Below, piece after piece: positions 41,821 through 61,148 of a stretch of DNA of 64,000 bases. Source of the DNA: Mesoflavibacter profundi (lineage in GTDB: Bacteria; Bacteroidota; Bacteroidia; Flavobacteriales; Flavobacteriaceae); contig NZ_CP061703.1 of NCBI RefSeq assembly GCF_014764305.1, forward strand, positions 1,392,800 through 1,456,799. The letters are read 5' to 3'. Within the stretch, counting starts at the first letter, position 1. Each line of letters opens with the position of its first letter. Below the pieces are notes generated by a model. It worked only from the letters and a program-made list of their open reading frames with translations. It was not told the origin of the DNA and ran no database searches. The translations under genes and the position numbers were made by a program.

Positions 41821-42219
41821 TTGAATAATTTAAACTTTGAAGCTTTTCTTGAATGTATATTGATTTTTTATTCAACCGTAACGGAATGTTCTCCAACGGG
41901 ACAACACTCAGCACCTATTAAACCTATATACTCACTTAATATGTCTGTAAGTTTATCATCATCTAATCTATGGACATCAACTTACAGTCCATATCAGCAA
42001 GAACTTTTTGATATCATAAGTAAGTTTCATGAGAAAGATGGATGGAACTTTAAACAGATATCGGATTGGTTGATTGAGAACAATTATAAAACACCTAGAG
42101 GTAAGACGTTCACTCACACGCATTGTTGGAGTATTTATAAGAAGAAGAGCAAAAGCATTCAGAGGTTCAGTCGAGAGTTCGAACCTACAATAACGGATGT
42201 AAAGATTAATCAGATTTAA
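41821..42219 (+). pseudogene. Duplicated 3' fragment of the recombinase-domain ORF at 57328..57999 (last about 114 codons identical, unique 18-codon TTG-initiated N-terminus)
   Basis: The protein is identical to the C-terminus of the 223-aa ORF from VTECSPTGQ... onward. Confidence 0.6.
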
Positions 42220-42840
42220 TTAGGCAGAAAGATTAGTTGTCATGGCATTCTTTACCTTATATATGTAGTTAGGTGAGCATTCAACGATTCGACTAATCTT
42301 TCTGATTCCTATATCTTCATTAAGTAAGGTCATTATCTTTTGAACTTTTGGTTTAGATAAGAAGGTCTCAACACTTTCTGTACTACCGATTTTTCGTCCT
42401 TTATATTTACCATCTAATTTAGCACGTTCAATTCCTGCTAATGTTTTTTCTCTAGTCTGGTGGTATTGGAACTCACTAATCGAGCTTAATATATTAATAA
42501 GCAAGTTAGACATCACGCTCTCTTTACCATCAATAAGAGTAGTTATACCCTCATTTTGCGATGTGATAGGCACATTATAGCTATGGATAGTTTTAATGGT
42601 TTTAAGTATGTCCTCTAGGTCTCTTCCAAGACGGTCGATACGAAGGACTATCACTTGATTAATCTTACCGTTTGCAATATCCTCAATAAGTCGCTTACCA
42701 CTTGGACGTTCGAGGAATGGGATACGACCGCTGACACCTTTATCTTCATACACCTTCCAACCATCTTCAATTTTATCAATTTGAGTTCCGATGTTTTGAA
42801 GGTAGTGAGATGTTCTTAGGTAGTATCCAATATTGCTCAT
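42220..42840 (-). CDS. Serine recombinase, resolvase/invertase family (copy 1)
   Basis: 206 aa with a presumed Ser nucleophile in YLRTSH, the motif VLRIDRLGRD and a C-terminal HTH. It is 100% identical to the copy at 56707..57327. Confidence 0.85.
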   Translation of the reverse strand: MSNIGYYLRTSHYLQNIGTQIDKIEDGWKVYEDKGVSGRIPFLERPSGKRLIEDIANGKINQVIVLRIDRLGRDLEDILKTIKTIHSYNVPITSQNEGITTLIDGKESVMSNLLINILSSISEFQYHQTREKTLAGIERAKLDGKYKGRKIGSTESVETFLSKPKVQKIMTLLNEDIGIRKISRIVECSPNYIYKVKNAMTTNLSA

Positions 42841-42970
42841 AAATGTTATTAATTTAGGTTGTATTAAATAATAACACTAATATAGTGATAATTCCCTGAC
42901 AAGTGTATGTTTACGGCAATTATCTTATCGTGATTATGTATATTGAATAGATTAGACTTTTAAATAATAA

Positions 42971-43039
42971 CATTACAAATTTTGACCTGTGATAGAACTT
43001 TAATTAGTAATCTAAAAGTACAGGTCAAAATTTGTAATG
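42971..43039. promoter_or_regulatory. Perfect 20-bp inverted repeat (cattacaaattttgacctgt / acaggtcaaaatttgtaatg) with a 29-bp spacer, upstream of the recombinase gene; candidate recombination or operator site
   Basis: The dyad symmetry is read directly from the sequence. A mirrored copy lies at 56508..56576. Confidence 0.4.
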
Positions 43040-43182
43040 CAAGTGTCTGGTTTAACTTTTAATAAAGAGTTTTGTGACTATTATATAATTGGTATGACAT
43101 TGCCAAAATTAAAATGGATAGTTTGGTATAATGTTTATCGGGTTTTTCATATATTTAAGTGTAAATAATAACATATAAATAT

Positions 43183-43671
43183 TTGAGTAAAACAAACAAA
43201 AAAATCCTATACATTGACATGGACAATGTATTGGTAGACTTCCGTTCTGCATTCCCTTTTTTAGACAATAGTATAAAAGAGAAATATAAAGATAACATGG
43301 ATGAAATAGAGGGAATTTTTTCTCTTATGAAGCCGATGAAAGATTCAATAAATTCCTTTGAAATACTTTCAAAACATTTTGATGTATACATACTTTCCAC
43401 TAGTCCTTGGGATAACCCAACCGCAGCATCTGAAAAAGTATCATGGGTAAAAAAATATTTACCTGAATTAGCCTATAAAAGATTGATTTTATCTCATAAC
43501 AAACATTTGAACCATGGCGATTACATTATTGACGATAGGCTCGCAAATGGGGTTGACCGTTTTTCAGGCGAACATATCCATTTTGGACAAGAGAACTTCA
43601 AAGATTGGCATTCGGTCGTGAAGTATTTATTAATTAAAGAAAGAATTAATGAACCAGAGTTTGAAAAATAA
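43183..43671 (+). CDS. HAD-superfamily 5'(3')-deoxyribonucleotidase (NT5C family)
   Basis: YIDMDNVLVDF is a DxDxV HAD motif I, and size and spacing match NT5C-like nucleotidases. Confidence 0.55.
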   Translation: MSKTNKKILYIDMDNVLVDFRSAFPFLDNSIKEKYKDNMDEIEGIFSLMKPMKDSINSFEILSKHFDVYILSTSPWDNPTAASEKVSWVKKYLPELAYKRLILSHNKHLNHGDYIIDDRLANGVDRFSGEHIHFGQENFKDWHSVVKYLLIKERINEPEFEK

Positions 43672-43999
43672 GATTTTAGAAAAACAAATTTTTGAAGGAC
43701 TTACAAATTTGAATACAGGTTGGGATGCTCCGACAATAGCATATTTCTCTGAAACTGATTTTAAAACTGTTCTAGAGAGAATTGAAAAGATGAATTTCGG
43801 AATTTACGGAATAGAACCATGGACTGAGGATAATCACTATTTTGATGTAAAGTTATTTGATGATTATTCAAACAAACCAAATGACCCATTGTGGTATAAC
43901 AAAGCTTTTAGTGAGTTTAGAAAAACAGGTGAAGAACTAAAGTATTCAGCTAGTTATTATGTCCCAGAAGAGCTGTTAATTTTTGATTTAAATTTTTAA
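43649..43999 (+). CDS. Hypothetical protein (overlaps the previous gene by 23 bp)
   Basis: Only ORF-level evidence. Confidence 0.35.
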   Translation: MNQSLKNKILEKQIFEGLTNLNTGWDAPTIAYFSETDFKTVLERIEKMNFGIYGIEPWTEDNHYFDVKLFDDYSNKPNDPLWYNKAFSEFRKTGEELKYSASYYVPEELLIFDLNF

Positions 44000-44001
44000 C
44001 A

Positions 44002-45108
44002 TTATAAACTTAATGATTCAAAAAAATCATCTACGAGATATTTAATTGGCATGAGTAATTCCTTATCAGATTCCATAATCAATTTAGCAAAAGGTTTTTT
44101 ATAATCATCACCAATTTTATATAAAATAATAAGTGCTTCCAATTTAGTAAACCCAAATTTTTCTAACCTATCTTCGGTAAAATCACTTTTAATCGATAAA
44201 CTTATTTTTGCATCATCAATTACTATATTAGTTAAATCTCTTTTTTCTAACCATTCATTCTTTTTAGCTTGTTTCCAAAAGAATTCAGAAAGCAAATCTT
44301 CAATTACAGTAGAAAAAGTAATTCCCTTTTTTTTAATAGATTTTAATATAGGAGAATATTTAGCACTACATTTTCTAATAATAAATGTTTTAGATTCAGC
44401 TGAGTTTATATCGATAAGATTTCTAAGTTTTTCAATCGAATCTTTCCCTGCTTTATCATCATCAAATAAACCGATTGCTTTTAAATATTTATTATCATTT
44501 GTTTTTATGGCTAATTGTTTCCCCCAAATAAATAACTGTCTCTCAACCCAAGAAGCTCCTCCTCCAAACTTTAAAGTATCAATGAATAATAACTTCTCTT
44601 TTTTAGGGTAAAACTTAGAAATAGTAGACTTAATTATTTTCTTATCAGTTGTTCCCTCTACAAATAAGGTTTCTATTTTTTCAACATTTATTCGAGATTT
44701 AACAAGACTTATATGAAATATTAAATCTCTTAAACTTTCTTTCCATTTTTCTTCACTAGCATCATAATACCAAACATTCCAAACATTTTTTAAATCTTTT
44801 TTTAACTCAATGAACTGAGTTAAACCTATAATATACATTGGAACATTTGCCTTAGTTTTTCTTCTGTATAAACTTCTAACTAATGATTCTCCGCCTGAAT
44901 CATCAGGAGAATCATCATGTTTAATAGGCATTTTTAAGTCTGTAATTAAAAGATGAAATTCTTTTCTTTGTAAATACTCAATTGCTTCTTGAACGCAAGA
45001 TGCTTGATTTATAGATAAAGTTTCTGAAATTGTTTCTTTTATTGCATTTATAATCGATGTGATTTTTTTTAAGTCATCATCAACTATGAGTATACTTATA
45101 AAACTCAT
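44002..45108 (-). CDS. Response-regulator receiver domain fused to a Toprim-like effector domain (DtcC-like)
   Basis: An N-terminal REC (ILIVDDD ... LLITDLKMP) and a C-terminal domain with LFVEGTTDKKII ... GLFDDDKAGK, a Toprim-type E...DxD pattern. A 4-bp overlap with the upstream gene. Confidence 0.6.
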   Translation of the reverse strand: MSFISILIVDDDLKKITSIINAIKETISETLSINQASCVQEAIEYLQRKEFHLLITDLKMPIKHDDSPDDSGGESLVRSLYRRKTKANVPMYIIGLTQFIELKKDLKNVWNVWYYDASEEKWKESLRDLIFHISLVKSRINVEKIETLFVEGTTDKKIIKSTISKFYPKKEKLLFIDTLKFGGGASWVERQLFIWGKQLAIKTNDNKYLKAIGLFDDDKAGKDSIEKLRNLIDINSAESKTFIIRKCSAKYSPILKSIKKKGITFSTVIEDLLSEFFWKQAKKNEWLEKRDLTNIVIDDAKISLSIKSDFTEDRLEKFGFTKLEALIILYKIGDDYKKPFAKLIMESDKELLMPIKYLVDDFFESLSL

Positions 45109-45560
45109 TTTTTTATTTCGATTATCAATTTATCTAGTTTCTCAATCCAATTATCTTCATTAGTCTTAAAAAGAACTGCTCCAATATAAAATTCTTCAAA
45201 TTCCTTGTTATATTTTTGATTCAATTCTTTAAATGTCAATGCTCCATCATTAGTTGGAAATACATCAAACATTGTAAAGAGAATAGTAGGTAGGAATAAA
45301 TTTTTTCGTTTCATTTCTCTTAGAACTTTCTCTCCTCCAAATTGTTCATAATTTCCCCCCAAATCATTATTACCCTTCCCCCACAAAGGTATAGTCATAT
45401 CTAAAATCAGAAAATCATATTCTCTGAAATTTTTCTTTAACTCGGATACACCACTTTGATAGGATTCTTTTAAAGTAATAGAGTCACTACTAAAAAATTC
45501 TTTTAGACGAGCAATTTTAGTTATATCATCCTCAATAATTAATACTTTATTCATCTTCAT
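45105..45560 (-). CDS. Stand-alone receiver (REC) domain protein (DtcB-like)
   Basis: VLIIEDD and FLILDMTIP motifs in 151 aa with no output domain. A 14-bp overlap with the upstream kinase gene. Confidence 0.6.
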   Translation of the reverse strand: MKMNKVLIIEDDITKIARLKEFFSSDSITLKESYQSGVSELKKNFREYDFLILDMTIPLWGKGNNDLGGNYEQFGGEKVLREMKRKNLFLPTILFTMFDVFPTNDGALTFKELNQKYNKEFEEFYIGAVLFKTNEDNWIEKLDKLIIEIKK

Positions 45561-48500
45561 TTAATTTTACAAAAGGAAAAAATAATTCAACTGTTAAGTT
45601 ATTTTCGGAAAATGAAAAGTCAAACATGTCTGTTTTAGCAGAGGTTTCATAAATTAGAATCCTTTTAATTTTATCAAAACCACTTTTATCCTCTTTATTT
45701 GACCTATCAATATTGGAATGGTCGTTCCAATTTTGCTTTACTTCTTCAAGTCTTTTTCTGTTTTCAGAATAATCTTCATTTTCCTTTAAATTATTACAAA
45801 ATGCAATTTTTACATATTTATCAAGATGTAAATCGATACTAATATGAATCTTAACCTCGTTAGGTGTCAGTTTAGAATGAGAAATGATATTATTTAATAA
45901 TATATTAAAAACAAATATTGTACTTGAATAAACACCAAAAGGAGCTATATTATTTTGAATAGTAGGTTTTATGAGAAAATTAGGATTAATTCGATTAGTA
46001 AGAACAATACTGGCTTCAATTACAGTATCTATACTGAGAAGTGATGTAGAGTTTGTAGTGTTTAAATAAAACCAGTCTGATATAACCTCTAACTCTTTTT
46101 GTATTTCAGTGCCAGATTTAATTAAATTAGGTATAAGTTCACAATCTGAAGTTAAATTAAATTCTCGTACTTCTTCTATACAATTATCAATAATTTCTTG
46201 AAAATTAGTCCTAATATCACCTTTAAATTTATTTACTATTTTTTTCTGTAATGATATAAGAGTGTGCTCAACTAAATTTGTAAGCAACATATCTATAATA
46301 GTTTCAGTAGTATCAAATTTTTCTCTATTTCTTTCAAAAAAATCATATAATATATCATCATTTGTGAAAAACCCAAAAATACCATAATCCTTTTCTTTTG
46401 TCTTTTCTGTTTTAATCTGGATTAGTTTATCTACTATGAAAATAATATATTCGTCAATTTCAGATGAGAATTTCTTTAGAGCTTTTTGTACTCTAATATT
46501 TTCTACGAAATAACCACTGAGTTGTTGCGCCCATACATCATTATCCTTATATTCATTATTAAGTTTTGATGTTACCAAATTAAGTTTCTCAAAAACACTT
46601 CGGATATGGTTTTTCAAAGCACCGTGTCGAATTCTGGTGCTTAAGCAGCTGTCTAAACCATGCTCTTTACTAAATAAAAAATTCTCTCTAGATTCTAAAT
46701 AAATATTTTTAAAAGCCAAATATTCTGCGGAATTATATGAGTCAATTTTTGATGAACTAATAGATAGTAATTCATCCCAGTTTTGCTTGTTAGATGGATT
46801 AAAACTAATTAATTTTTGCGCTGATGAAGATTGTTCTATTTCTTTAAATCTTTTAAAATCATCCTTAAACTTTTTAATTTGTTTTTTTTTAAGATTGTCT
46901 ACATCAATATACAGTCTACCTTCATCTACCTCTTTTAAAACTTTTCTAACTGAATTGGTTCTTAATATCTCATTTATTTCTTTTTCATATTCGGTTTTTG
47001 AATCATTATTTAATTTTATTAGAATATTAAGAATCATTACCCTATCTTCTTCGACTTCACTAATAGAACCATAATCTGAGGAATATTTAATTGTGTCAAT
47101 GGTTGATACATTTTCAAGGAAATAAATAGTCTTACTTAAACCAAAGCGATGAACAAAAGAATCAATATCTAAATTTTTTAGGTCTTCAATATTATTTGCG
47201 AATAAAAAATCATCATAAGCTTCATATAGGTCAAACTCTTTACTGTGTAATGACATAACGATAGGAAACTCAATATGCACCTCAAAACCTTGCTTGTTTT
47301 TACACTCTTTAATTTTATTAAATAAAAGGGATGTGTTAATTTTCCTTGAACTAAAATTCTCATCAAAAAAAACAAGTCCATATAATTTTAATGCTTTGGA
47401 TAGTAAATTTTGATGAAGGTAAGAGTGGAATAATAAACTTATTTTTCTTTCTCTGTAATAATTGATTGTATCAAGTTTTGAGTCATTTTCTAACAATTCT
47501 ATTACTTCAGGATATTCCTTTTTATTATAATATCTTATAGCTTCAAAAGTTTTGTTTTGTCTATAATCTTTAGAAATTGGTTTTTTTAGATTTGTTGTTA
47601 GACCTAATTTGTATTCAGCAACTTGAAAAGAAAAATTGTTTCTAACAGGGGTAAGATTTTTTATAATACATTCTCTCGTATTATGAAAGAAAAGAAACTT
47701 GCTAGTTGTGTAGCTAGAAGAAAACAAGCCTCTTATGTAGTGTTTTTCTAAATTTGCTTCAATTTCAGATATTAAACTGAATACTTGTTTTCCAAAACTT
47801 GTATTCATATATCTTAACGCTGTAGTTAATAAGAAATCAAAATGCTCTTGTTCATCATTTTTGAAACTAAATACCTGAAATACACTAAAAAGAATTTTAT
47901 CGATAGCTCTACTGATGCCTGTTTTAATAAAATCAGACTCTAAATTAATTAAAGATTTACAATAAAATTCGTAATATTCAAATTCTAAAGGGTTTTCTTT
48001 TAACCCTTCTAACGAAAACTTAAGTGTTTTTTTAAACAACCCCTTATAGTAAGAGTTGGAACAATTAAAAAACAATTCATTATCATTGGCTGTATCGTAG
48101 TCATCCTTAATATTTAATAAATTATAAAGATTTATTAATCTACTGTCGTTATGAATAATTTTTTTAGCTTTTTTAAGAAAGACTTGATAGAACCTATCAT
48201 GCTTATTGATTTTATTAGTGTTATATATTATAGCATCAATTAAAATCAAATATTGGTCTACTATAGAAAGTGTGTTTGCTACATAGTAAACGCTTTCTAA
48301 ATTTTTATAAGAATAATCGTAATTGGGGTAATTAAAATTTTTGAACACCAAAAAATCTTCAATAACTCCATCTGCATTGATGGTGTCTATGTCATTTTGA
48401 AAATGATTTAAAAAGCTCTCAAAACTCATTTTAGATTCAACTCTTTTACTACTTGAATTAATAATGAATTCATAAAGAGGAGTTTTAATCTTAGTAAGGT

Positions 48501-48957
48501 AGTCACTTAGTAAATTCCAATTAGCTTCAGTCCCATTTATATTATCTTCCACAAATAAATGAGCCTCAATGCTCCATAGGCTAATTCCAAATTTGTCTTC
48601 TATTTCTAAAACTATTAATCTCGCTTCATCATAATTATCCAACATTAATAATGTCTCGAAATTATTTTTCAATTTCATGAAATCATTAATTTCTGAGAAA
48701 TAATCTTCTAAAATATTAGTTAGCCATCTAAACTCAATCTTTAAGTTTTGAGAAAAATTAAACGGTTCTTTCAGATGTATATCCTCAATTGAATTAAAAT
48801 AGGGGGTTTTGTGCAAAAAGTTTTTGAATAAAGAATGAAGTGAAAGAGCTTCTTTAAATTGACCTGAATTTACGTTATGCTTAATTTGGTCAATTTTCTG
48901 TGGTAGAGATGTGTCTCTATTTCTTAAAATTTCAACAATTTTTTTTCTATACTGCAT
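45547..48957 (-). CDS. Large sensor protein with C-terminal histidine-kinase-like ATPase domain (DtcA-like)
   Basis: 1136 aa. The C-terminal roughly 200 aa have a GHKL-ATPase-like pattern, and a putative H-box (LSTRIRHGALKNHI) precedes it. Confidence 0.55.
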   Translation of the reverse strand: MQYRKKIVEILRNRDTSLPQKIDQIKHNVNSGQFKEALSLHSLFKNFLHKTPYFNSIEDIHLKEPFNFSQNLKIEFRWLTNILEDYFSEINDFMKLKNNFETLLMLDNYDEARLIVLEIEDKFGISLWSIEAHLFVEDNINGTEANWNLLSDYLTKIKTPLYEFIINSSSKRVESKMSFESFLNHFQNDIDTINADGVIEDFLVFKNFNYPNYDYSYKNLESVYYVANTLSIVDQYLILIDAIIYNTNKINKHDRFYQVFLKKAKKIIHNDSRLINLYNLLNIKDDYDTANDNELFFNCSNSYYKGLFKKTLKFSLEGLKENPLEFEYYEFYCKSLINLESDFIKTGISRAIDKILFSVFQVFSFKNDEQEHFDFLLTTALRYMNTSFGKQVFSLISEIEANLEKHYIRGLFSSSYTTSKFLFFHNTRECIIKNLTPVRNNFSFQVAEYKLGLTTNLKKPISKDYRQNKTFEAIRYYNKKEYPEVIELLENDSKLDTINYYRERKISLLFHSYLHQNLLSKALKLYGLVFFDENFSSRKINTSLLFNKIKECKNKQGFEVHIEFPIVMSLHSKEFDLYEAYDDFLFANNIEDLKNLDIDSFVHRFGLSKTIYFLENVSTIDTIKYSSDYGSISEVEEDRVMILNILIKLNNDSKTEYEKEINEILRTNSVRKVLKEVDEGRLYIDVDNLKKKQIKKFKDDFKRFKEIEQSSSAQKLISFNPSNKQNWDELLSISSSKIDSYNSAEYLAFKNIYLESRENFLFSKEHGLDSCLSTRIRHGALKNHIRSVFEKLNLVTSKLNNEYKDNDVWAQQLSGYFVENIRVQKALKKFSSEIDEYIIFIVDKLIQIKTEKTKEKDYGIFGFFTNDDILYDFFERNREKFDTTETIIDMLLTNLVEHTLISLQKKIVNKFKGDIRTNFQEIIDNCIEEVREFNLTSDCELIPNLIKSGTEIQKELEVISDWFYLNTTNSTSLLSIDTVIEASIVLTNRINPNFLIKPTIQNNIAPFGVYSSTIFVFNILLNNIISHSKLTPNEVKIHISIDLHLDKYVKIAFCNNLKENEDYSENRKRLEEVKQNWNDHSNIDRSNKEDKSGFDKIKRILIYETSAKTDMFDFSFSENNLTVELFFPFVKLNEDE

Positions 48958-49358
48958 TTTCTCTATACTTATTTTAACAACATAGTTCTTTTACTTTTAT
49001 CATCCAGTTCTTTATATATTCAAAATCAATATTTTCAATATGTTTTGTTATCGTTTCCCGTCTTGATTCTTCTGGTAACTGAAAATAAGTGTCATCCTTG
49101 GCTTCTTCTCTATAGTAGCCCTCTCTTTACATAATGGTTTCAACTACTTCTTCAAATTAATATGTTGGCAGAATCCCCCAATCAAAATTCTAATGTAGTT
49201 AATGTTAACTTATTTTTTGACATAAAATATTTTAGTTTATTCACGAGTTTAACTATGTCATTTACTTAATAGAAATAACATAGCTATAAAAAAATTAAGG
49301 GAGAGTTAAAGATATAATTTATTACTTAAAAGGAGATTTTTAAGTAAAAAAATATTGG

Positions 49359-49625
49359 TTAAGGTTTTTTATCAAAAACTAACAATTCTGAAGTGGTTAA
49401 ATCAAAAGCAGTTGCTATACGTTTTAACATAGAAATCTTCATCTCTTGCCTTCCTAATTCATATTTTCTTAGGTTCTGAGCATCAATTTCGGCTTTGAAA
49501 GCAATTTCTTCAATTGATAAACCTCTTTCTTTTCTCAAAGTTCTTAGGTGTTTTCCTAGTTCAATACAAAACAAGGAAACCTCGTTTTTACGTTCTCTTT
49601 TGGTCATATTCAAATTTGAGAACAA
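49359..49625 (-). CDS. XRE-family HTH transcriptional regulator
   Basis: Classic HTH_3 sequence (LGKHLRTLRKERGLSIEEIAFKAEIDAQNLRKYELG). The start may be the internal Met at 49607. Confidence 0.7.
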   Translation of the reverse strand: MFSNLNMTKRERKNEVSLFCIELGKHLRTLRKERGLSIEEIAFKAEIDAQNLRKYELGRQEMKISMLKRIATAFDLTTSELLVFDKKP

Positions 49626-49781
49626 TTAGGTATTATCAACCAATTGCAAATAACAGGTTGTTTACAACCTTTTTTGTTTTACATTTGTAAGAAAATTACA
49701 GTCATTAAGGAAAACCGTAAAGCTTTCAGAAGCTTCTGAAATATCTTTAGTGATTTTCAAATATTAATCAATCTAAATACA

Positions 49782-50219
49782 ATGAAAAACACCCGAATTA
49801 TTTTTTATTCATCATTATTAGCAACAAGTCTATTTATATCCTCATGCTCTAGTGATGATTCTTCAGAACAAAGAACAGAACCTACTACTACACAATTAGA
49901 CCTATTAAAAGGTACATGGGAAGAAAGCAATGTTACCCATGATGGCGTTGACAGTGAAACTCAAATTATTTGCAATAATGAAAGAGAACAATATGTCTTT
50001 AATGAAGATAACTCTTTTACGGAAAGATATTTTGACGATTACTGCGATGAAGACTTTGATAATGGCGAGTTTGAATTATCTGAATCTTCTCTAACATTGA
50101 ATTTTGACGATTCATCAACAGATGTATATCAAATAGTAGAATTAAATGATACGACATTAAAAATTAGCTTTGATGATGGTGGAGTATTAGTTGAAGAAAC
50201 TTATGTTAAAATAAATTAG
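49782..50219 (+). CDS. Lipocalin-like lipoprotein
   Basis: Signal peptide with an SSC lipobox and a LKGTWEE lipocalin-like start. Confidence 0.5.
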   Translation: MKNTRIIFYSSLLATSLFISSCSSDDSSEQRTEPTTTQLDLLKGTWEESNVTHDGVDSETQIICNNEREQYVFNEDNSFTERYFDDYCDEDFDNGEFELSESSLTLNFDDSSTDVYQIVELNDTTLKISFDDGGVLVEETYVKIN

Positions 50220-50230
50220 AAGATTTAAAG

Positions 50231-51274
50231 ATGAGAAAAACAAATTTTTTAATAGTACTAGCTATACTAAATTGTATGCTTTCTTTCAGTCAAGAAACAT
50301 TCAAATTTCGTGATATAAGTAGATATAGCATTTATACCGTAAGAGAAGGAACATGGTTTGTGCCAGATTATGAAGCTGAAGTAAAAAATCCAATGTATGA
50401 TGGGTTTTATAACGATGCAGTGAAAGAGTTTATTGAGGATTATGAAGTTATTTCAAAAAAATTAAGTGAATCTGAAAATGTAAAAGGTAAAGAAGGAAGG
50501 AAACTTAGAAAGTCTCTTAGCGCTCAAAGAATTGAAATTTTAACTAAATATCAACCGTACTTTAGTGGATTAAAATCTAAATGGTCTGGGACAGTACACT
50601 TTGAAGGTATTGATATTAATAGTCCAAACTTACTAGAAGAAAGTAAAAAAGTATTAAAAGAATTAGAAGGGACTAATTTGGTGATTAAGGATTTAAACGA
50701 AAAAGACCTTTTAAACAAAGTACCTAAAAAAAGTTTAACATTCAAAAAACTTATGTATTTAGGAGACAATACAAATATTAAAGGAGAATATTTTTTAGCT
50801 GGAAAAATAAAGGTTTCATACTCTTATAATGTAAATGATGGAACTTATGAAGACCAAGTGTTAGAAGGGGACAAAAATTATTCAAGATATTCTACTTATA
50901 ATTTTTTTAAAAGTGTAGATGGTTCTGGTACTGATTTTTATAATAGCAATATTGATATATATGACCCATATGCAGTAGAAAGAAAACCTAAAAAACTTAA
51001 CGCAGATGAAAAAAAAATTGTAAGTAAGATGAAAACTTACAAAGCTGAAATAACTAGTTTATTAGATAAAATTGCTCAGTATAGAAGTAAAACGAAAGCT
51101 GCTTACGAAGCAACAAAAAAAGGACAAGCTCTTCAGAAAAAAGTACAAGCATTATATGATAATAACGATGACAAATACTATGATTTCATGCAGCTATTAG
51201 ACATGGAAACAAAAGAAGTCATGGTCGAATTTAATCAAGTTTTAAAAGGGGCTGTAATTATATTTGGCTTATAG
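50231..51274 (+). CDS. Hypothetical secreted protein
   Basis: Signal peptide and a coiled-coil C-terminus. Confidence 0.45.
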   Translation: MRKTNFLIVLAILNCMLSFSQETFKFRDISRYSIYTVREGTWFVPDYEAEVKNPMYDGFYNDAVKEFIEDYEVISKKLSESENVKGKEGRKLRKSLSAQRIEILTKYQPYFSGLKSKWSGTVHFEGIDINSPNLLEESKKVLKELEGTNLVIKDLNEKDLLNKVPKKSLTFKKLMYLGDNTNIKGEYFLAGKIKVSYSYNVNDGTYEDQVLEGDKNYSRYSTYNFFKSVDGSGTDFYNSNIDIYDPYAVERKPKKLNADEKKIVSKMKTYKAEITSLLDKIAQYRSKTKAAYEATKKGQALQKKVQALYDNNDDKYYDFMQLLDMETKEVMVEFNQVLKGAVIIFGL

Positions 51275-51298
51275 TTTTAGCATTAAATAATAGAATAA

Positions 51299-51335
51299 AA
51301 AACCACTCAGTATTTGAGTGGTTTTTCATTTTTTA
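51299..51335. terminator. Bidirectional rho-independent terminator
   Basis: Hairpin aaaaaccactcagtatttgagtggtttttcatttttt. Confidence 0.55.
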
Positions 51336-51341
51336 TTCTTC

Positions 51342-51830
51342 CTAAATATCTTCTCCCCACCAATCCACAATCGTCTTAGCTTTTATCTTATCAATAGATT
51401 CTAAATTTTCACAATTTAGTATATCATCTGCTTCTATTTGATAGCAATTCCAATATCCAGAGAAAAAATCATCCATTACCTTTAACTCAGAATGTGGTGT
51501 ATCCTTCCCATCTACTATAATAAGAACATATTTTACAGCTCCTTTATGAAATATCGTAATATGTGGAACAAATAATAATTTTCCTCTATCAAAATCTGGT
51601 TTAAACCATTCAAGATAATCTACATATTGTTCATCCCTTTCATTGTAAGGAATAATACCTTTAGATTCTTCAAAATAATAAGAGTTATCAGATTCATAAA
51701 AAGGTAAATCTTTATAAACACCATAATTTCGTTTCCAATGGAATTGTGCTATTTCCGAAGAATCACCAGACATGTCTTCTTTCCTTAATATTTTAAATAA
51801 TTTTTCTTTTGCTTTTTCTATTTTATTCAT
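51342..51830 (-). CDS. Hypothetical protein
   Basis: ORF only. Confidence 0.4.
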   Translation of the reverse strand: MNKIEKAKEKLFKILRKEDMSGDSSEIAQFHWKRNYGVYKDLPFYESDNSYYFEESKGIIPYNERDEQYVDYLEWFKPDFDRGKLLFVPHITIFHKGAVKYVLIIVDGKDTPHSELKVMDDFFSGYWNCYQIEADDILNCENLESIDKIKAKTIVDWWGEDI

Positions 51831-51834
51831 TTTT

Positions 51835-52005
51835 TTAGTTTTTTACTTTTTCTAGAAATTCCTTTAATTGACCTTGAGATATTCTTACAGTATTATCGAT
51901 TTTATAACTTTTTAAATCCCCTTTTTTTATCCAATTATCTATTGTGAATATGGATACTGAAAAATAAGACTGAAGTTCTTTACGTGTGTATAACCTTTCT
52001 TCCAT
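51835..52005 (-). CDS. Small Xis/AlpA-like HTH DNA-binding protein (56 aa; not in the supplied ORF track)
   Basis: My manual translation gives MEERLYTRKELQSYFSVSIFTIDNWIKKGDLKSYKIDNTVRISQGQLKEFLEKVKN. This is the HTH_17-type pattern common in Bacteroidota mobile elements. Confidence 0.5.
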   Translation of the reverse strand: MEERLYTRKELQSYFSVSIFTIDNWIKKGDLKSYKIDNTVRISQGQLKEFLEKVKN

Positions 52006-52198
52006 GTTTGTTTAATTTCTTATTGCTTTATACTATATATATACTTTAAGCTAATATGATTTAGTAGTAAGCAGATAAGTTTAGATATAAAAATCAATTA
52101 TTAGTGAGTACCTATATTTTCAAAATATTACTTTAGCAAGGGGTGAATTTTGGAAGTATTCATGAAAGTAATCCTTAAATTTTTACAACAATATAAAT

Positions 52199-55100
52199 AT
52201 GACACATAAGAGCATTCAATTTAAAATAACATCAGTTGAAAAAAATCAAAATGGGTATACACCTCTTGATTATGATAAAAAATACTTTACGGACTACAAT
52301 GCTAGATTCAGTATAGGTAGTAAGGATTATGGTCGTAAAGTGTTATTCTACGGAAGAACTTCTCTTAAATATAGATTTCAGTCCGAAATAGAGGAGGCTA
52401 AAAGAGCTGAACTATCCATTTTCGAACATGAAGAAAAGTCAAAAACACCTAGAAGTATAAACGAAAAGGATTATCATGTTGATGGAATATATGCACATTA
52501 CAGTACTAATGAACTTATTATTGCTTTAAATGCATTTTCTGCCCAAAATATTTCTTCCCATTATTCTATGAAAATGGAATTGAAAGACCTTAAGAAGAAA
52601 TCCATTGAACAAGGTATTGAATTTGAAATACCTTCAAGATATAATTACAAAGCTAAGGGATTAGTTATTTCAAAACGATTAATGAAAGGAGGGATAAGTA
52701 CACAGTATAATTCTATTTGTCAGGGTTCTCCATTTTTGTTTTTTGATGTAGATGTAAAGCCAGAAGAAAACCCAAGATTATATACAGATGATGGGATTCC
52801 TAATAAGTTAAATACCGAAGTGTTTGAATATTTAAAAAAAATCGCTCTAATAACAGCTAGGTCAGCAAGTGGACTTGGTATTTGTGGTGTTATATATGTT
52901 CCTAGTTTAGCGAATGAAACTGATAATAGACTTCATAAAAGTATGGGGATGGCAGTTTATGATTACATTAATAATAAACTAGACCTACCTTGTAAAATTA
53001 AATTTGATGAAGCTCAAGCTCAATTTACTCAAGGACGTTCGTTTCCTGTTCAGTTTTATAGTAACAATGACAGATATAATTGGGATAAAATAGAATTAAA
53101 TAAAGATGCTATCGAATTTAAAATTGAGTCTATTGAAGTTGATAAAGAACTAAATGAAGTTAGATATGAAAATAAAAGAGAGGAATCAACATACACATAC
53201 ACATACACTGATGATGATTATAATCAAGAATATAACAATCAACCATTAATTAAAAAATATAACATGGAACATTTCTGTTATGAAATATTCATGAACAATG
53301 GATATGAAATAACTAAAGAAGAAAATTCTCAAGGATATTCTAAACTATCAAAAGTAGGTAAGAGAAATGATTCCATATCATTATCAAGTAATAACACATT
53401 TAAATGTTTTACGAGTAGCCTAAAGGGTTTTACCCCATTTGATTTATTATCTCAACTTGAATTTAATGGCGATTCCAGAGAGGCTTATAATTATGTTAAG
53501 AGTATTTATGAAGAAAAAAATAACAAAGAAATATTTGATACAAAATCTGTTCTGAATAATTGGGAATTGCTTGATGATGAAGATAAATTTTATGACCATC
53601 CAATGGAGAGTCTTGAAAAAACTTACTCATTAGTAGAGTTAAATGAAGTCATTGGTTCAAATACAATTTTTAACTCTTTTAAAATTGACGATAATGGTAA
53701 ATTTGAAGTTGTAGATACTACTGCAAAAGATTTATTAGGAATAACAGAACGAGATATTGAATTATCTCTTCATAGAACATACAAATCCACAGGTTACGAA
53801 TATCCTGTTCTTGACATAATTAAAAATACTGATATATGCACAACTTTAAAGGTTGAGGGATTTCTAACAACAGATTTAATCATTAAGAATTGTACATCAT
53901 ATATAAACTATATATATGCAGGTTGTGGATTAGGAAAAACAACAACCTTTCTGGGTAAAAACAATCCTAATATAGATGGCTTAACGAAAGATTTTAGTGT
54001 CTTATTTATAGTACCTCGTAAAATGATGGTAGAACAACAAGCTCTAACAGCAAATGGTTTATGTCAAATAGTTGCATCTACTGGAGATAAAATAATTAAA
54101 ACTAATGATGGCATTGAATATATTCAGTCAATTGGTAACAATTCTGAAAAATTATATGATGATAAAAATAATCTTAAATCTGTAATTTTAACCTATGACC
54201 AATTCGTTCATCTTCCAAATGATTTAGTTTCTAAATATGATTACATTGTTTTTGACGAAGCTCACTTATTAACTTCAGATTCTTATAGAGAAGCAATTCC
54301 AAAATCATTTTTAAAAATTGAAGAAGTTAAAAAAGAAAACTCAAAGGCAAAATTTATTTTATTATCTGCAACTCCTAGTATAGAATTATTGACAATATCT
54401 AAATATCATAAAAATGATTTTAAACTTTTAAACATTGTTAAATCTCACAAGGAGACTCCATCTTTATACGTGCATAATTTTATTCATACCGATAGAGTAA
54501 AAAAAGATATCCAAATATTTGAGCAAGTAGTATCTGATTTAGACCAAGGAAAGAAAGTTGTAATTTTTTGTGAAAATAAAAATCAAATAAATTTACAATG
54601 GAACAAGTTAGAGGAATACTGCAATGATATGGGGATTAAGCCTCCATCAAGAAGTTATGTTTCATCAGAATCAAAAGAGCTAGACCTTTATAAAGAATTA
54701 GTAAAAAATGAAAATCTTAATGTAGATTTAATGTATAGTACCTCTGTATTAAATGTTGGTGTAAATATATCATCAGGGGTAGAGAAAGGGGTAAGTTTTA
54801 TTTTTGATTATAGTTCTAATAATGGCTATGACACAGCTATAGGGCAAATTCAATTATTATTTAGAAACCGTTCTAGATTAACTGAAATACATTGTTTCTC
54901 TAATTTGATGGATACTTCAAATCCTAATTTGTTCAAAATTAATAAACCTGCAATCAAAAACGATGAAGTCAATTCTATCTTTGACAAGAACAAATTAGAT
55001 AAAACTTATGAAAATAAAACGCTAGCAAAAAGCACTAAATATAGTGATGTGAGTTTTAGTCATTTTGAAGAAGTATCAGATTGTGCAACAGCTACATTTG

Positions 55101-56407
55101 AACTAAACGAGCAGTTAATCACAGAGCAAAAGAGATTGGATACCTTTATTAAACAAGCAGTAACTCATGACTGTAAGGTTTATTATGTTTTGAATTCAGA
55201 TACAGGAAACTCAAAATTGAAAACAGGAGATTTATCAAACGAGTTCTCATTGAATGTCATTAATGAATTACTAACTTTAGATACAGGTCAAAGAATTTAT
55301 TTTGAAAAAGGAATACAATCAACTGCTGATAAAATAGAGCCTACATTTAGTTTAGACCAGAATAGCCTACAAATAAGAGACGAAATCAGGTATTATCAAT
55401 GTGCGTATCATTCTGCTTTTCATCCATTATTACAAAAATTAAGAAGGAGTTATAACACCTTAATGTATTATTACAGGGAAAAAGATAAACTTAAAGACGT
55501 TTTCAATTTTATTATTAACACATCAAGTAAAAAAGCAATAGACAAAAGAATTGTAGATTATATTAACACTTATAAAACCATTCATGAAGATAGCATAATT
55601 ACACAAATGACAGACAGTGTTATTAGTTCAAAAGGAGATTGTATTGATAAGATAACTTTAAAAAACATCCTTAATTCAATTATACCAAATGAAATAAGCT
55701 CTCATTTTTCAAAGAATCTTTCTGATGAATTAATAAAAGGCAATTATCAAAATGTTAAGGTTATAAGTGAACCACAATTTCAACATTTTTTTAAAGAACA
55801 TATTATCAATAAAGTTAATGACTCTTTTCTAAAATTATATAAAACTTCTACCTCAAAGACAGATAGTGAAGAGTTAGAAATAGAGAGTTTGAAAATTTTA
55901 GAGAGTAATAGGAAAATTGAGTCAGATGTCAATGATTCCCCTATTTTAAGTTTTTTAGGGTTTGATATGAATATTAACTCTTTAAATAATGCAGATTTAT
56001 TTGAAAAACTTCTTAAGGAGCTTTCTGATAAATACCCTAGAGAAGGGTTGAATCAACATATATTAGTTGATTATAACATAGAAAAGGATAACTTTAATTC
56101 TAAAAAAACCATATCCATTAGTATAAACGATTTTTATTTAAAATACGATAATGAATTGTCTGTTTTTAGAGAAAAACCTGAAAATAGAAGAAGTAAATTT
56201 TGTTATGCAATTATTGACAACGGAACTGAAGAAGTGATAATTGAAAAAAGCATGAAATTATTACATTCAACGTTAAGTGAAAAAGGTATTTTATCTAAAA
56301 TGGTGAGTCCTCAAAATTACAACTTTGAAAAACTGAATAATTTTAATAAAACAGATAAGTTAAATTCTTGTAGGAATTATACGGTAATCAAAAAGATTCC
56401 TATATAA
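52199..56407 (+). CDS. Large primase-like (DxD) N-terminus fused to an SF2 DEAH-box helicase
   Basis: FFDVDVK is an AEP-primase-like motif in the N-terminal third. Walker A (AGCGLGKTT), DEAH (IVFDEAHLL) and SAT (LLSATP) helicase motifs follow. 1402 aa. Confidence 0.55.
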   Translation: MTHKSIQFKITSVEKNQNGYTPLDYDKKYFTDYNARFSIGSKDYGRKVLFYGRTSLKYRFQSEIEEAKRAELSIFEHEEKSKTPRSINEKDYHVDGIYAHYSTNELIIALNAFSAQNISSHYSMKMELKDLKKKSIEQGIEFEIPSRYNYKAKGLVISKRLMKGGISTQYNSICQGSPFLFFDVDVKPEENPRLYTDDGIPNKLNTEVFEYLKKIALITARSASGLGICGVIYVPSLANETDNRLHKSMGMAVYDYINNKLDLPCKIKFDEAQAQFTQGRSFPVQFYSNNDRYNWDKIELNKDAIEFKIESIEVDKELNEVRYENKREESTYTYTYTDDDYNQEYNNQPLIKKYNMEHFCYEIFMNNGYEITKEENSQGYSKLSKVGKRNDSISLSSNNTFKCFTSSLKGFTPFDLLSQLEFNGDSREAYNYVKSIYEEKNNKEIFDTKSVLNNWELLDDEDKFYDHPMESLEKTYSLVELNEVIGSNTIFNSFKIDDNGKFEVVDTTAKDLLGITERDIELSLHRTYKSTGYEYPVLDIIKNTDICTTLKVEGFLTTDLIIKNCTSYINYIYAGCGLGKTTTFLGKNNPNIDGLTKDFSVLFIVPRKMMVEQQALTANGLCQIVASTGDKIIKTNDGIEYIQSIGNNSEKLYDDKNNLKSVILTYDQFVHLPNDLVSKYDYIVFDEAHLLTSDSYREAIPKSFLKIEEVKKENSKAKFILLSATPSIELLTISKYHKNDFKLLNIVKSHKETPSLYVHNFIHTDRVKKDIQIFEQVVSDLDQGKKVVIFCENKNQINLQWNKLEEYCNDMGIKPPSRSYVSSESKELDLYKELVKNENLNVDLMYSTSVLNVGVNISSGVEKGVSFIFDYSSNNGYDTAIGQIQLLFRNRSRLTEIHCFSNLMDTSNPNLFKINKPAIKNDEVNSIFDKNKLDKTYENKTLAKSTKYSDVSFSHFEEVSDCATATFELNEQLITEQKRLDTFIKQAVTHDCKVYYVLNSDTGNSKLKTGDLSNEFSLNVINELLTLDTGQRIYFEKGIQSTADKIEPTFSLDQNSLQIRDEIRYYQCAYHSAFHPLLQKLRRSYNTLMYYYREKDKLKDVFNFIINTSSKKAIDKRIVDYINTYKTIHEDSIITQMTDSVISSKGDCIDKITLKNILNSIIPNEISSHFSKNLSDELIKGNYQNVKVISEPQFQHFFKEHIINKVNDSFLKLYKTSTSKTDSEELEIESLKILESNRKIESDVNDSPILSFLGFDMNINSLNNADLFEKLLKELSDKYPREGLNQHILVDYNIEKDNFNSKKTISISINDFYLKYDNELSVFREKPENRRSKFCYAIIDNGTEEVIIEKSMKLLHSTLSEKGILSKMVSPQNYNFEKLNNFNKTDKLNSCRNYTVIKKIPI

Positions 56408-56419
56408 TTTAATTAATTG

Positions 56420-57672
56420 ACCAAACTATCCATTTTAATTTTGGCAATGTCATACCAATTATATAATAGTCACAAAACTCTTTATTAAAAGTTAAACCAG
56501 ACACTTGCATTACAAATTTTGACCTGTACTTTTAGATTACTAATTAAAGTTCTATCACAGGTCAAAATTTGTAATGTTATTATTTAAAAGTCTAATCTAT
56601 TCAATATACATAATCACGATAAGATAATTGCCGTAAACATACACTTGTCAGGGAATTATCACTATATTAGTGTTATTATTTAATACAACCTAAATTAATA
56701 ACATTTATGAGCAATATTGGATACTACCTAAGAACATCTCACTACCTTCAAAACATCGGAACTCAAATTGATAAAATTGAAGATGGTTGGAAGGTGTATG
56801 AAGATAAAGGTGTCAGCGGTCGTATCCCATTCCTCGAACGTCCAAGTGGTAAGCGACTTATTGAGGATATTGCAAACGGTAAGATTAATCAAGTGATAGT
56901 CCTTCGTATCGACCGTCTTGGAAGAGACCTAGAGGACATACTTAAAACCATTAAAACTATCCATAGCTATAATGTGCCTATCACATCGCAAAATGAGGGT
57001 ATAACTACTCTTATTGATGGTAAAGAGAGCGTGATGTCTAACTTGCTTATTAATATATTAAGCTCGATTAGTGAGTTCCAATACCACCAGACTAGAGAAA
57101 AAACATTAGCAGGAATTGAACGTGCTAAATTAGATGGTAAATATAAAGGACGAAAAATCGGTAGTACAGAAAGTGTTGAGACCTTCTTATCTAAACCAAA
57201 AGTTCAAAAGATAATGACCTTACTTAATGAAGATATAGGAATCAGAAAGATTAGTCGAATCGTTGAATGCTCACCTAACTACATATATAAGGTAAAGAAT
57301 GCCATGACAACTAATCTTTCTGCCTAATTAAATCTGATTAATCTTTACATCCGTTATTGTAGGTTCGAACTCTCGACTGAACCTCTGAATGCTTTTGCTC
57401 TTCTTCTTATAAATACTCCAACAATGCGTGTGAGTGAACGTCTTACCTCTAGGTGTTTTATAATTGTTCTCAATCAACCAATCCGATATCTGTTTAAAGT
57501 TCCATCCATCTTTCTCATGAAACTTACTTATGATATCAAAAAGTTCTTGCTGATATGGACTGTAAGTTGATGTCCATAGATTAGATGATGATAAACTTAC
57601 AGACATATTAAGTGAGTATATAGGTTTAATAGGTGCTGAGTGTTGTCCCGTTGGAGAACATTCCGTTACGGT
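56420..57672. repeat. Right arm of the perfect 1253-bp inverted repeat
   Basis: See the left arm. Confidence 0.9.
56707..57327 (+). CDS. Serine recombinase, resolvase/invertase family (copy 2, identical)
   Basis: The protein sequence is identical to 42220..42840. Confidence 0.85.
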   Translation: MSNIGYYLRTSHYLQNIGTQIDKIEDGWKVYEDKGVSGRIPFLERPSGKRLIEDIANGKINQVIVLRIDRLGRDLEDILKTIKTIHSYNVPITSQNEGITTLIDGKESVMSNLLINILSSISEFQYHQTREKTLAGIERAKLDGKYKGRKIGSTESVETFLSKPKVQKIMTLLNEDIGIRKISRIVECSPNYIYKVKNAMTTNLSA

Positions 57673-57999
57673 GGAGTAGTCACGAACGGGGGTGAGTTGA
57701 TTTAACTTTTTACGACCTCGTTTAACTGGCATAATAGATATTTGGGTTCCGTTTTCGGAACCCTTTTCTTTTTCTAATACGACAGGTATTTTAAAATTAA
57801 TATTTAAAAGGTGCAGTTTATTCTCATTATCATAGTTCACTGTTATTTTATCTATTATAACCTTGAGAAACTCCTTTTTCATCTCGTCTGAAATATTGGT
57901 TTGAGTTTTGATATGTTCTGAGAAATTGTCAATCCAGTCAAACCATTTCTGTTCAGTTCCTAATTGCCTTAGTTTACTTCTCAAACCTTCAATCTTCAA
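57328..57999 (-). CDS. Recombinase-domain protein (large-serine-recombinase-like 'recombinase' motif at C-terminus); TTG start, possibly a truncated remnant
   Basis: The C-terminus (LIENNYKTPRGKTFTHTHCWSIYKK) fits the G-x-W...IL pattern of the recombinase domain. I found no ATG or GTG in the 43 in-frame codons upstream before a stop at 58129..58131. Confidence 0.45.
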   Translation of the reverse strand: MKIEGLRSKLRQLGTEQKWFDWIDNFSEHIKTQTNISDEMKKEFLKVIIDKITVNYDNENKLHLLNINFKIPVVLEKEKGSENGTQISIMPVKRGRKKLNQLTPVRDYSTVTECSPTGQHSAPIKPIYSLNMSVSLSSSNLWTSTYSPYQQELFDIISKFHEKDGWNFKQISDWLIENNYKTPRGKTFTHTHCWSIYKKKSKSIQRFSREFEPTITDVKINQI

Positions 58000-61146: not shown

Positions 61147-61148
61147 AG

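What the first reader, a model, noticed from the sequence alone, without database searches (positions are those of the whole stretch)
44002..48957. Detocs-like three-gene phosphorelay with a Toprim-like effector instead of PNP
Three co-directional genes have overlapping junctions (14 bp and 4 bp). They encode a 1136-aa protein ending in a histidine-kinase-like ATPase domain, a 151-aa receiver-only protein, and a 368-aa receiver fused to an effector domain. This hybrid-kinase, buffer-receiver, receiver-effector layout is the defining layout of the Detocs antiphage system. Here the effector is not a purine nucleoside phosphorylase. It carries LFVEGTTD...GLFDDDKAG, an E...DxD arrangement typical of Toprim/OLD-like nucleases, which would be a nuclease-armed variant. 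An XRE regulator lies 400 bp upstream.
Basis: partly seen in the sequence, partly recalled or inferred. Interest (0 to 1): 0.85.

Follow-up and report, generated by a model that had tools for sequence, protein, structure and literature searches.

The report
Known Detocs defence operon, TOPRIM-nuclease type

Summary
Three co-directional, overlapping minus-strand genes encode proteins of 1136, 151 and 368 aa.

- **DtcA:** The 1136-aa protein has a TPR-like N-terminal part and a divergent histidine-kinase C-terminal part. It has no Pfam HK hit. Its fold matches solved histidine kinases, and H778 is invariant.
- **DtcB:** It is a stand-alone receiver.
- **DtcC:** It is a receiver fused to a nuclease module homologous to the C-terminal part of OLD-family ATPase-nucleases. 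All residues that match the OLD two-metal site are invariant.
- **Not new:** Rousset et al. 2023 (Fig. S8B, Table S5) list an "OLD-like TOPRIM nuclease" class of Detocs in ten Bacteroidetes genomes. One of them is Olleya marilimosa CAM030. Its operon is 80% (DtcA), 79% (DtcB) and 87% (DtcC) identical to this one.
- **XRE gene:** It is real but is shared only with Olleya, so it is not a core part.
- **Still open:** The TOPRIM subtype appears never to have been tested experimentally. Its substrate (DNA or tRNA) and the way phosphorylation switches on a nuclease that lacks an ATPase are unknown.
- **Side observation:** The operon lies in a 13.3-kb low-GC cargo segment. Two 1259-nt inverted repeats bracket this segment, and each carries an identical serine recombinase gene.

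The parts
45547..48957 (-). dtcA: 1136-aa sensor kinase-like protein. Residues 1 to about 650 form a TPR-like helical array. Residues about 744-1136 form a divergent histidine-kinase module: invariant H778 (codon 46624-46626), N-box N1023, and the E1089/G1093/K1096 motif.
   Evidence: PADLOC PDC-M60A 2e-67 over 50-1119. Homologues carry PF27260 'Y4jQ'. AF2 pLDDT 86. Foldseek PDB top hits are histidine-kinase cytoplasmic modules plus TPR scaffolds. H778, N1023, N1055, E1089, G1093 and K1096 are invariant across TOPRIM-type and PNP-type DtcA.
45105..45560 (-). dtcB: stand-alone receiver of 151 aa (or 149 aa from the ATG at 45554). Acidic pocket E10/D11/D12; phospho-acceptor D54 (codon 45399-45401).
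   Evidence: PADLOC PDC-M60B 3.5e-31 over the full length. Pfam Response_reg 6.5e-4. Residues. Conserved in 22 loci.
44692..45108 (-). dtcC receiver domain (residues 1-139). D10/D11/D12; phospho-acceptor D57 (codon 44938-44940); T97.
   Evidence: Response_reg 9.6e-7. PDC-M60C 7e-17 over residues 5-141 only. Invariant columns. Foldseek hits to receiver domains, probability 1.0.
44005..44691 (-). dtcC effector domain (residues 140-368): OLD-like Toprim nuclease core plus a C-terminal helical region. E151 (44656-44658), D155, D216-x-D218 (44455-44463), G221, K256, E270, R290, K337.
   Evidence: 42 of 73 family members hit PF20469 OLD-like_TOPRIM (best 3.9e-5) and 25 hit Toprim_2. BLASTP 3e-18 to the C-terminal part of an AAA_15/AAA_21 OLD-type protein. 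Invariant residues. Beta-alpha-beta order from AF2. Profile search finds mostly OLD-ATPase fusions.
49359..49625 (-). XRE-family HTH gene (88-aa ORF; NCBI aa), 400 bp upstream on the same strand. A neighbour, not a core component.
   Evidence: HTH_3 5e-11. PADLOC HTH_VI and capH-like hits. Found next to the operon only in Olleya (81% identical) and in none of the other loci.
41869..43127 (.). Left arm of the 1259-nt inverted repeat (context). It holds a truncated Recombinase-domain ORF, a 206-aa serine recombinase (42220-42840, minus strand) and a 69-nt palindrome.
56420..57678 (.). Right arm of the inverted repeat (context). It holds an identical serine recombinase (56707-57327, plus strand).
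   Evidence: An independent assembly's 13,370-nt contig ends 39 nt inside the left arm.

Best explanation
This is a Detocs (defensive two-component system) operon of the already catalogued 'OLD-like TOPRIM nuclease' subtype, carried on a horizontally acquired cargo segment in a flavobacterium (closest match Corallibacter sp.). The proposed mechanism has four steps. (1) The TPR-like N-terminal part of DtcA detects a phage cue. (2) The divergent kinase module of DtcA autophosphorylates on H778. (3) The phosphate passes to D57 of DtcC; DtcB (D54) acts as a phosphate sink that absorbs leaky signalling and so prevents self-killing. (4) Phosphorylation of the DtcC receiver releases or dimerises the C-terminal OLD-type two-metal Toprim nuclease, which nicks or degrades nucleic acid (most likely DNA) and stops phage replication, probably by abortive infection. 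The gene anatomy, the homologies, the folds, the conserved residues and the membership in the catalogued subtype are shown here by computation. The phosphotransfer order, the buffering role of DtcB and the defence phenotype are inferred from the experimentally tested Vibrio alginolyticus PNP-type system. The nuclease activity and its substrate are inferred from OLD-family biochemistry.
For: Gene anatomy. PADLOC PDC-M60A and PDC-M60B match over their full length, and PDC-M60C matches the receiver only. Rousset et al. 2023 describe Detocs effector swapping, including TOPRIM PF20469, and list ten 'OLD-like TOPRIM nuclease' systems, all in Bacteroidetes. Olleya marilimosa CAM030, which is on that list, has the same 1136/149/368-aa operon at 80/79/87% identity. 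Sphingobacterium DSM 18850, also listed, has it at about 50%. The DtcA fold matches ZraS, KinB, WalK, ThkA, HK853 and EnvZ plus TPR scaffolds. DtcA aligns with the large proteins of Sinorhizobium, Klebsiella and Bacillus operons that end in REC+PNP_UDP_1, with H778, N1023, E1089, G1093 and K1096 invariant. Effector: PF20469 hits in 42 of 73 homologues; 3e-18 to an OLD-type ATPase-nuclease that sits between hsdS and hsdM; the profile search gives 313 representatives, mostly AAA_15/AAA_21 fusions and one Mrr+NB-ARC STAND fusion. The invariant residues map onto the OLD two-metal site described in PMC7049728: E151/D216/D218 correspond to metal A; D155 (E+4) and E270 correspond to metal B; K256/R290/K337 are candidates for the essential basic residue. 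Context: low-GC cargo next to HsdR and GmrSD genes.
Against: No experiment exists for any TOPRIM-type Detocs in the searchable literature. This DtcC itself gives no PF20469 hit even at E <= 10; only its relatives do. No solved OLD or GajA structure is reached by sequence profile. The fold searches could not be focused on the effector half, so the Toprim fold rests on secondary-structure order and sequence homology rather than a scored structural match. The kinase module lacks a canonical G1-box Asp (N1055 instead). The invariant His lies about 100 residues upstream of the DHp-like hairpin that pairs with the ATPase domain in the model, so H778 as phospho-site is an inference. The canonical receiver Lys after beta-5 is not evident in DtcC.
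Confidence: 0.85

Rival explanations
1. The architecture is the same, but the Toprim effector cuts RNA (for example tRNA, as the PARIS AriB Toprim nuclease does) rather than DNA, so defence works by shutting down translation.
For: AriB is a Toprim nuclease that cleaves tRNA (PMC12409363, listed). The effector is too distant from solved DNA-cutting OLD and GajA enzymes to be reached by sequence profile. It has a family-specific C-terminal helical region with invariant K256, R290 and K337.
Against: Its closest relatives over the whole domain are C-terminal modules of AAA_15/AAA_21 OLD-type proteins, whose characterised members nick or degrade DNA. The Pfam signal is to PF20469 and Toprim_2.
Confidence: 0.15
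2. The operon is a stabilisation or exclusion module of the mobile cargo segment, acting against competing plasmids or other elements or as an addiction system, rather than a dedicated anti-phage system.
For: It lies in a 13.3-kb low-GC cargo bracketed by recombinase-bearing inverted repeats, together with a 1402-aa helicase and an HTH_17 gene. PNP-type relatives are common on conjugative plasmids.
Against: The tested Detocs systems protect against phages. The operon occurs in many unrelated contexts without this cargo. The flanking genes are restriction-type defence genes.
Confidence: 0.08
3. It is an ordinary regulatory two-component system, and the C-terminal domain of the 368-aa protein is a non-catalytic or metal-binding (EF-hand-like) output.
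For: Profile searches against PDB sequences return centrin and calmodulin EF-hands through the motif LKAxGLFDDDxxGK (E down to 4e-6). The Pfam receiver hits are weak.
Against: The centrin match covers only about 35 residues. In the AF2 model residues 211-217 form a beta-strand, not an EF-hand entering helix. The whole 220-residue domain is homologous to OLD-type nuclease modules. There is no DNA-binding output domain. A full set of candidate catalytic residues is invariant.
Confidence: 0.02

Closest known systems
Detocs, 'OLD-like TOPRIM nuclease' subtype (Rousset et al. 2023, bioRxiv 10.1101/2023.01.24.525353, Fig. S8B and Table S5), for example Olleya marilimosa CAM030
   Same: Same three genes in the same order with the same lengths (1136/149/368 aa), at 80/79/87% protein identity. 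The flanking genes are also shared, and the DNA is 75-81% identical over window 43103-51335.
   Different: Nothing of substance: the host species differs, and here the full chromosomal context is visible. The subtype was catalogued by HMM search and manual inspection. It has not been tested experimentally.
Canonical Detocs with PNP (ATP nucleosidase) effector, Vibrio alginolyticus UCD-32C (experimentally tested)
   Same: TPR plus kinase-like DtcA, buffer receiver DtcB and receiver-effector DtcC. DtcA is homologous end to end to the large proteins of PNP-type operons and shares the same invariant His and ATP-binding motifs.
   Different: The effector is a Toprim nuclease instead of PNP_UDP_1, so the predicted outcome is nucleic-acid cleavage rather than ATP/dATP depletion. 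DtcA identity to the PNP-type proteins is only 20-26%.
OLD-family nucleases (P2 Old; Class 1 Ts OLD; Class 2 Bp OLD; GajA of Gabija)
   Same: The C-terminal nuclease module is homologous. The E...DxD metal-A triad, the acidic residue at E+4 and the downstream T-x-E-type glutamate for metal B are all conserved.
   Different: There is no N-terminal ABC ATPase; a phospho-receiver domain takes its place. Solved OLD and GajA structures are not reached by sequence profile.
PARIS AriB and retron-Eco2 Toprim effectors
   Same: They are Toprim nuclease effectors released by an upstream sensor in an abortive-infection system.
   Different: The sensors differ (ATPase AriA; reverse transcriptase with msDNA). 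AriB cuts tRNA. No specific sequence relationship to them was detected here.

Membership tests
Detocs (DtcABC) | DtcA: large sensor protein with TPR-like repeats and a histidine-kinase module carrying a conserved phosphorylatable His | tested here: met
   Foldseek hits to histidine kinases and TPR scaffolds. Invariant H778 and ATP-binding motifs are shared with the DtcA of PNP-type operons. PDC-M60A 2e-67. No Pfam HisKA or HATPase_c hit, but PNP-type DtcA proteins lack one too.
Detocs (DtcABC) | DtcB: stand-alone receiver domain with a phospho-acceptor Asp | tested here: met
   151 aa, receiver only, D54. PDC-M60B 3.5e-31.
Detocs (DtcABC) | DtcC: receiver domain fused to a cell-killing effector in place of a DNA-binding output | tested here: met
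   Receiver at residues 1-139 with D57. OLD-like Toprim module at residues 140-368. No DNA-binding domain.
Detocs (DtcABC) | All three genes adjacent and co-directional (the authors' MacSyFinder rule allows at most one foreign gene between them) | tested here: met
   The ORFs overlap. The order is conserved in 21 of 24 loci.
Detocs (DtcABC) | Detected by the authors' own HMMs and curation | tested here: met
   Met indirectly. Olleya marilimosa CAM030 is listed in Table S5 as 'OLD-like TOPRIM nuclease', and its only matching locus is 79-87% identical to this operon. The authors' HMMs and DefenseFinder could not be run here.
Detocs (DtcABC) | Confers phage resistance that depends on the His, the Asp and the effector active site | not testable with these tools
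   This needs plaque assays. Published only for the PNP and hydrolase+TM types.
OLD-family nucleases | C-terminal Toprim domain with a two-metal catalytic set (E, DxD; acidic residue at E+4; S/T-x-E; basic residue) | tested here: met
   E151, D216, D218, D155, E270 and K256/R290/K337 are invariant, compared. The mapping is by sequence spacing, not by superposition. PF20469 is hit by 42 of 73 relatives but not by this protein itself.
OLD-family nucleases | N-terminal ABC-type ATPase domain | tested here: not met
   The N-terminus is a receiver domain. So this is not an OLD protein proper, only a carrier of its nuclease module.
Classical regulatory two-component system | Response regulator with a DNA-binding or other regulatory output | tested here: not met
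   No HTH, winged-helix or other regulatory output in either receiver protein.
EF-hand calcium-binding proteins | Helix-loop-helix with a 12-residue DxDxDG loop | tested here: not met
   Only a 35-residue motif match. The segment before the DDD is a beta-strand in the model. Loop position 12 is not acidic.

The most novel reading that the evidence does not exclude
Two readings are not excluded. (a) In this uncharacterised subtype, receiver phosphorylation replaces the ABC ATPase as the switch of an OLD-type nuclease, and the nuclease may target tRNA or other RNA rather than DNA. That would be a new regulatory logic for Toprim immune effectors. (b) The 13.3-kb defence cargo, bracketed by inverted copies of a serine recombinase gene, is a mobile or invertible defence cassette of a kind not yet described.
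Probability: 0.12. Interest if true: 0.55.

Novelty: already known. Interest (0 to 1): 0.2.

Why it matters
It adds nothing new to the catalogue: the subtype and a near-identical orthologue are already listed in the paper that defined Detocs. Its remaining value is as a well-delimited example of a subtype that seems never to have been tested. The predicted key residues are H778, D54, D57, E151, D155, D216, D218 and E270. The subtype could show how a phospho-receiver controls an OLD-type nuclease in the absence of the ATPase that normally gates it. The locus also shows a defence operon travelling inside a compositionally foreign cargo next to type I and type IV restriction genes.

Tried and rejected
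- **Foldseek with the full DtcC model:** Searches against PDB and BFVD viral structures were both dominated by receiver-domain hits and gave no usable score for the effector half. No structure or fold-search jobs remained for a domain-only model.
- **Profile searches against PDB sequences:** The full family and the effector-only profile returned only centrin and calmodulin EF-hands, through a 35-residue motif. I rejected this as convergence (see rivals). No OLD or GajA hit appeared.
- **DtcA profile against PDB sequences:** Only a weak TPR hit.
- **Permissive Pfam scan of DtcA relatives:** Only 2 of 27 hit HATPase_c_5 and 1 of 27 hit HATPase_c.
- **NCBIfam and PHROGs:** Nothing specific.
- **Promoter and terminator scan:** At chance level (44 found against 44 expected).
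- **Literature:** Searches for 'Detocs_TOPRIM' and 'PDC-M60' gave nothing useful.
- **Olleya contig end:** I tested whether it ends in the same repeat arm. Only about 25 nt of the arm's inner end are shared, and the sequence then diverges, so the result is inconclusive.
Full report
**Observation**

The overlaps are 14 bp and 4 bp. NCBI's gene call on an identical contig starts the middle gene two codons later, which gives 149 aa and an 8-bp overlap. These are real genes. The same three-gene order recurs in 21 of 24 related loci from species-representative genomes, at 27-87% protein identity.

**What the proteins are: sequence libraries**

Pfam sees only weak receiver domains in the 151-aa and 368-aa proteins and nothing kinase-like in the 1136-aa protein.

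PADLOC's candidate system PDC-M60 matches the large protein over nearly its full length (2e-67). It also matches the small receiver (3.5e-31). It matches the 368-aa protein only over residues 5-141, so the effector differs from the one in that model.

**The large protein (DtcA)**

- An AlphaFold model built on 46 homologues has pLDDT 86. It shows a long helical-repeat N-terminal part and a C-terminal alpha/beta domain preceded by long paired helices.
- Foldseek against the PDB returns cytoplasmic histidine-kinase modules as top hits: ZraS, KinB, WalK/YycG, ThkA, HK853, EnvZ and RetS. Probability is 1.0 over about 250 aligned columns, and TM-score relative to the target is up to 0.68 for the ATPase domain alone. 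TPR scaffolds (Cut9, Naa15, Ski3) match the N-terminal part.
- tblastn against plasmids found relatives in Sinorhizobium medicae pSMED03, a Klebsiella pneumoniae IncF plasmid and a Bacillus toyonensis plasmid. In each, the large gene is followed by a small receiver and then by a receiver fused to PNP_UDP_1, which is the canonical Detocs layout.
- Aligned together, the TOPRIM-type and PNP-type large proteins share an invariant 'LSxxxRHG' histidine (H778 here). They also share an N-box Asn (N1023), an Asn at the G1-box position (N1055) and an 'E-x-x-S-G-F/Y-x-K-I' motif (E1089-I1097).
- The PNP-type large proteins also lack Pfam kinase hits.
- The precomputed Pfam tag on all homologues is PF27260, 'Y4jQ'.

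**The effector domain of DtcC**

- Seventy-six homologues all have the same layout, a receiver plus a C-terminal domain of about 230 aa, and none has a Pfam assignment for that domain.
- The AlphaFold model (pLDDT 90) gives the order beta1-E151, helix, beta2, helix, beta3-D216/D217/D218, helix, beta4. This is the Toprim order. A helical region follows.
- In a permissive Pfam scan of all 73 aligned members, 42 hit PF20469 (OLD-like_TOPRIM, best 3.9e-5). Another 25 hit Toprim_2, 7 hit DUF3226 and 4 hit DUF4276. The window protein itself stays below detection.
- Two loci matched only the effector domain. There it forms the C-terminal part of an AAA_15/AAA_21 ABC-ATPase protein of about 590 aa, lying between hsdS-like and hsdM-like genes. 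That is an OLD-family architecture. The pairwise match covers DtcC residues 126-345 (E = 3e-18).
- An effector-only profile searched against 1.84 billion cluster representatives found only 313 proteins. They were mostly DtcC-like (about 365 aa) or OLD-ATPase fusions (about 580-630 aa). One was a Mrr+NB-ARC STAND fusion. The module is therefore an exchangeable immune effector.
- The invariant residues fit the two-metal site of OLD nucleases described in PMC7049728. E151, D216 and D218 correspond to metal A. D155, four residues after the Glu, and E270 correspond to metal B. K256, R290 and K337 are candidates for the essential basic residue. This mapping rests on spacing and conservation, not on a structural superposition.

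**Comparison with what is known**

The paper that defined Detocs states that 80% of operons carry PNP and that the rest carry other effectors. Its Fig. S8B names TOPRIM (PF20469).

Its Table S5 lists ten 'OLD-like TOPRIM nuclease' systems, all in Bacteroidetes. They include Olleya marilimosa CAM030 and Sphingobacterium composti DSM 18850. The genome scan found both:

- The Olleya locus has a 1136/149/368-aa operon with DtcA, DtcB and DtcC 80%, 79% and 87% identical to the window proteins. It shares the flanking genes, and its DNA is 75-81% identical over window 43103-51335.
- The Sphingobacterium operon is about 50% identical.

A 2025 retron paper also lists Detocs among Toprim-containing defence systems. 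The variant is therefore already known. I found no experimental study of it.

**Mechanism**

The Vibrio system has been tested: mutants in the His, the DtcC Asp and the effector site lose defence, and the DtcB Asp mutant is toxic. By analogy:

1. DtcA senses infection and phosphorylates H778.
2. The phosphate goes to D57 of DtcC.
3. DtcB (D54) buffers leaky signalling.
4. The activated OLD-type nuclease cuts nucleic acid and aborts infection.

DNA is the most likely substrate because the nearest relatives are OLD-type modules. The tRNA-cutting Toprim nuclease AriB keeps RNA open as an alternative.

Three features weaken confidence in the details:

- The G1-box Asp is replaced by Asn.
- H778 lies about 100 residues upstream of the hairpin that pairs with the ATPase domain in the model.
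- The canonical receiver Lys is not evident in DtcC.

**Context**

- The XRE gene is real but is shared only with Olleya.
- The operon sits in a 13,292-nt segment of 27.1% GC, against 31.5% for the rest of the window. Two 1259-nt inverted repeats, 99.84% identical, bracket this segment. Each carries an identical 206-aa serine recombinase gene.
- An independent assembly holds the same cargo as a 13,370-nt contig whose end lies 39 nt inside the left arm. This shows that the arms are genuine repeats.
- HsdR and GmrSD genes follow the right arm.

**Verdict**

Novelty is absent at the level of system type. Interest is low, apart from the unanswered biochemical questions about this untested subtype.

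Noticed in passing
window 41869-43127 and 56420-57678: A 1259-nt inverted repeat (99.84% identical; the two mismatches sit at the outer edge). Each arm holds an identical 206-aa serine recombinase (Resolvase + HTH_7) and a 69-nt palindrome with 20-nt stems (42971-43039 and 56508-56576). The arms bracket 13,292 nt of low-GC cargo (27.1% against 31.5%). An independent assembly (GCA_042665575.1) has the cargo as a 13,370-nt contig ending 39 nt inside the left arm. This could be a composite-transposon-like or invertible defence cassette.
   Followed up: partly
window 57328-57999 (-) and 41821-42219 (+): The 223-aa ORF at the right arm has a weak Recombinase-domain (PF07508) hit. Its C-terminal ~116 residues are duplicated in the left arm as the C-terminal part of a 132-aa ORF. 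So the left arm looks like a partial inverted duplication rather than a complete insertion sequence.
   Followed up: partly
window 58141-63116 (-): Immediately beyond the right arm lie a type I restriction R subunit (HSDR_N + SWI2_SNF2) and a GmrSD type IV restriction enzyme. The Detocs cargo is therefore inserted beside a restriction-type defence cluster.
   Followed up: partly
window 52199-56407 (+), with small ORFs at about 51342-52100: The cargo also carries a 1402-aa protein whose only recognisable domain is a central DEAD/ResIII helicase (residues about 570-730). It has no PHROG or NCBIfam identity. A 56-aa HTH_17 (excisionase/AlpA-like) gene is called next to it in the identical NCBI contig. 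This may be the replication or mobilisation machinery of the element.
   Followed up: no
window 43183-43999 (+): An NT5C-type 5'(3')-deoxyribonucleotidase gene (162 aa; PF06941 4e-16; phrog_2643) and an overlapping 116-aa ORF of unknown function converge on the 3' end of dtcC. They are conserved with the operon in Olleya but in no other locus.
   Followed up: partly
window 44440-44480 (DtcC residues about 208-231): The Toprim DxD loop and its flanks (YLKAIGLFDDDKAGKDSIEKL) mimic the centrin/calmodulin EF-hand closely enough to give E = 4e-6 in a profile search of PDB sequences. This is a trap for annotation by short motif.
   Followed up: yes
DtcA residues 744-1136 (window 45550-46728): In all DtcA proteins, both TOPRIM-type and PNP-type, the G1-box Asp of the GHKL ATPase is an Asn (N1055). 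The only invariant His (H778) lies well upstream of the helical hairpin that pairs with the ATPase domain in the model. The geometry of autophosphorylation in Detocs kinases may therefore be non-canonical.
   Followed up: partly
P0265 (1391 aa, from the representative library): The same OLD-like nuclease module sits at the C-terminus of a Mrr_cat + NB-ARC/STAND NTPase protein. This is a third sensor class using this effector.
   Followed up: no
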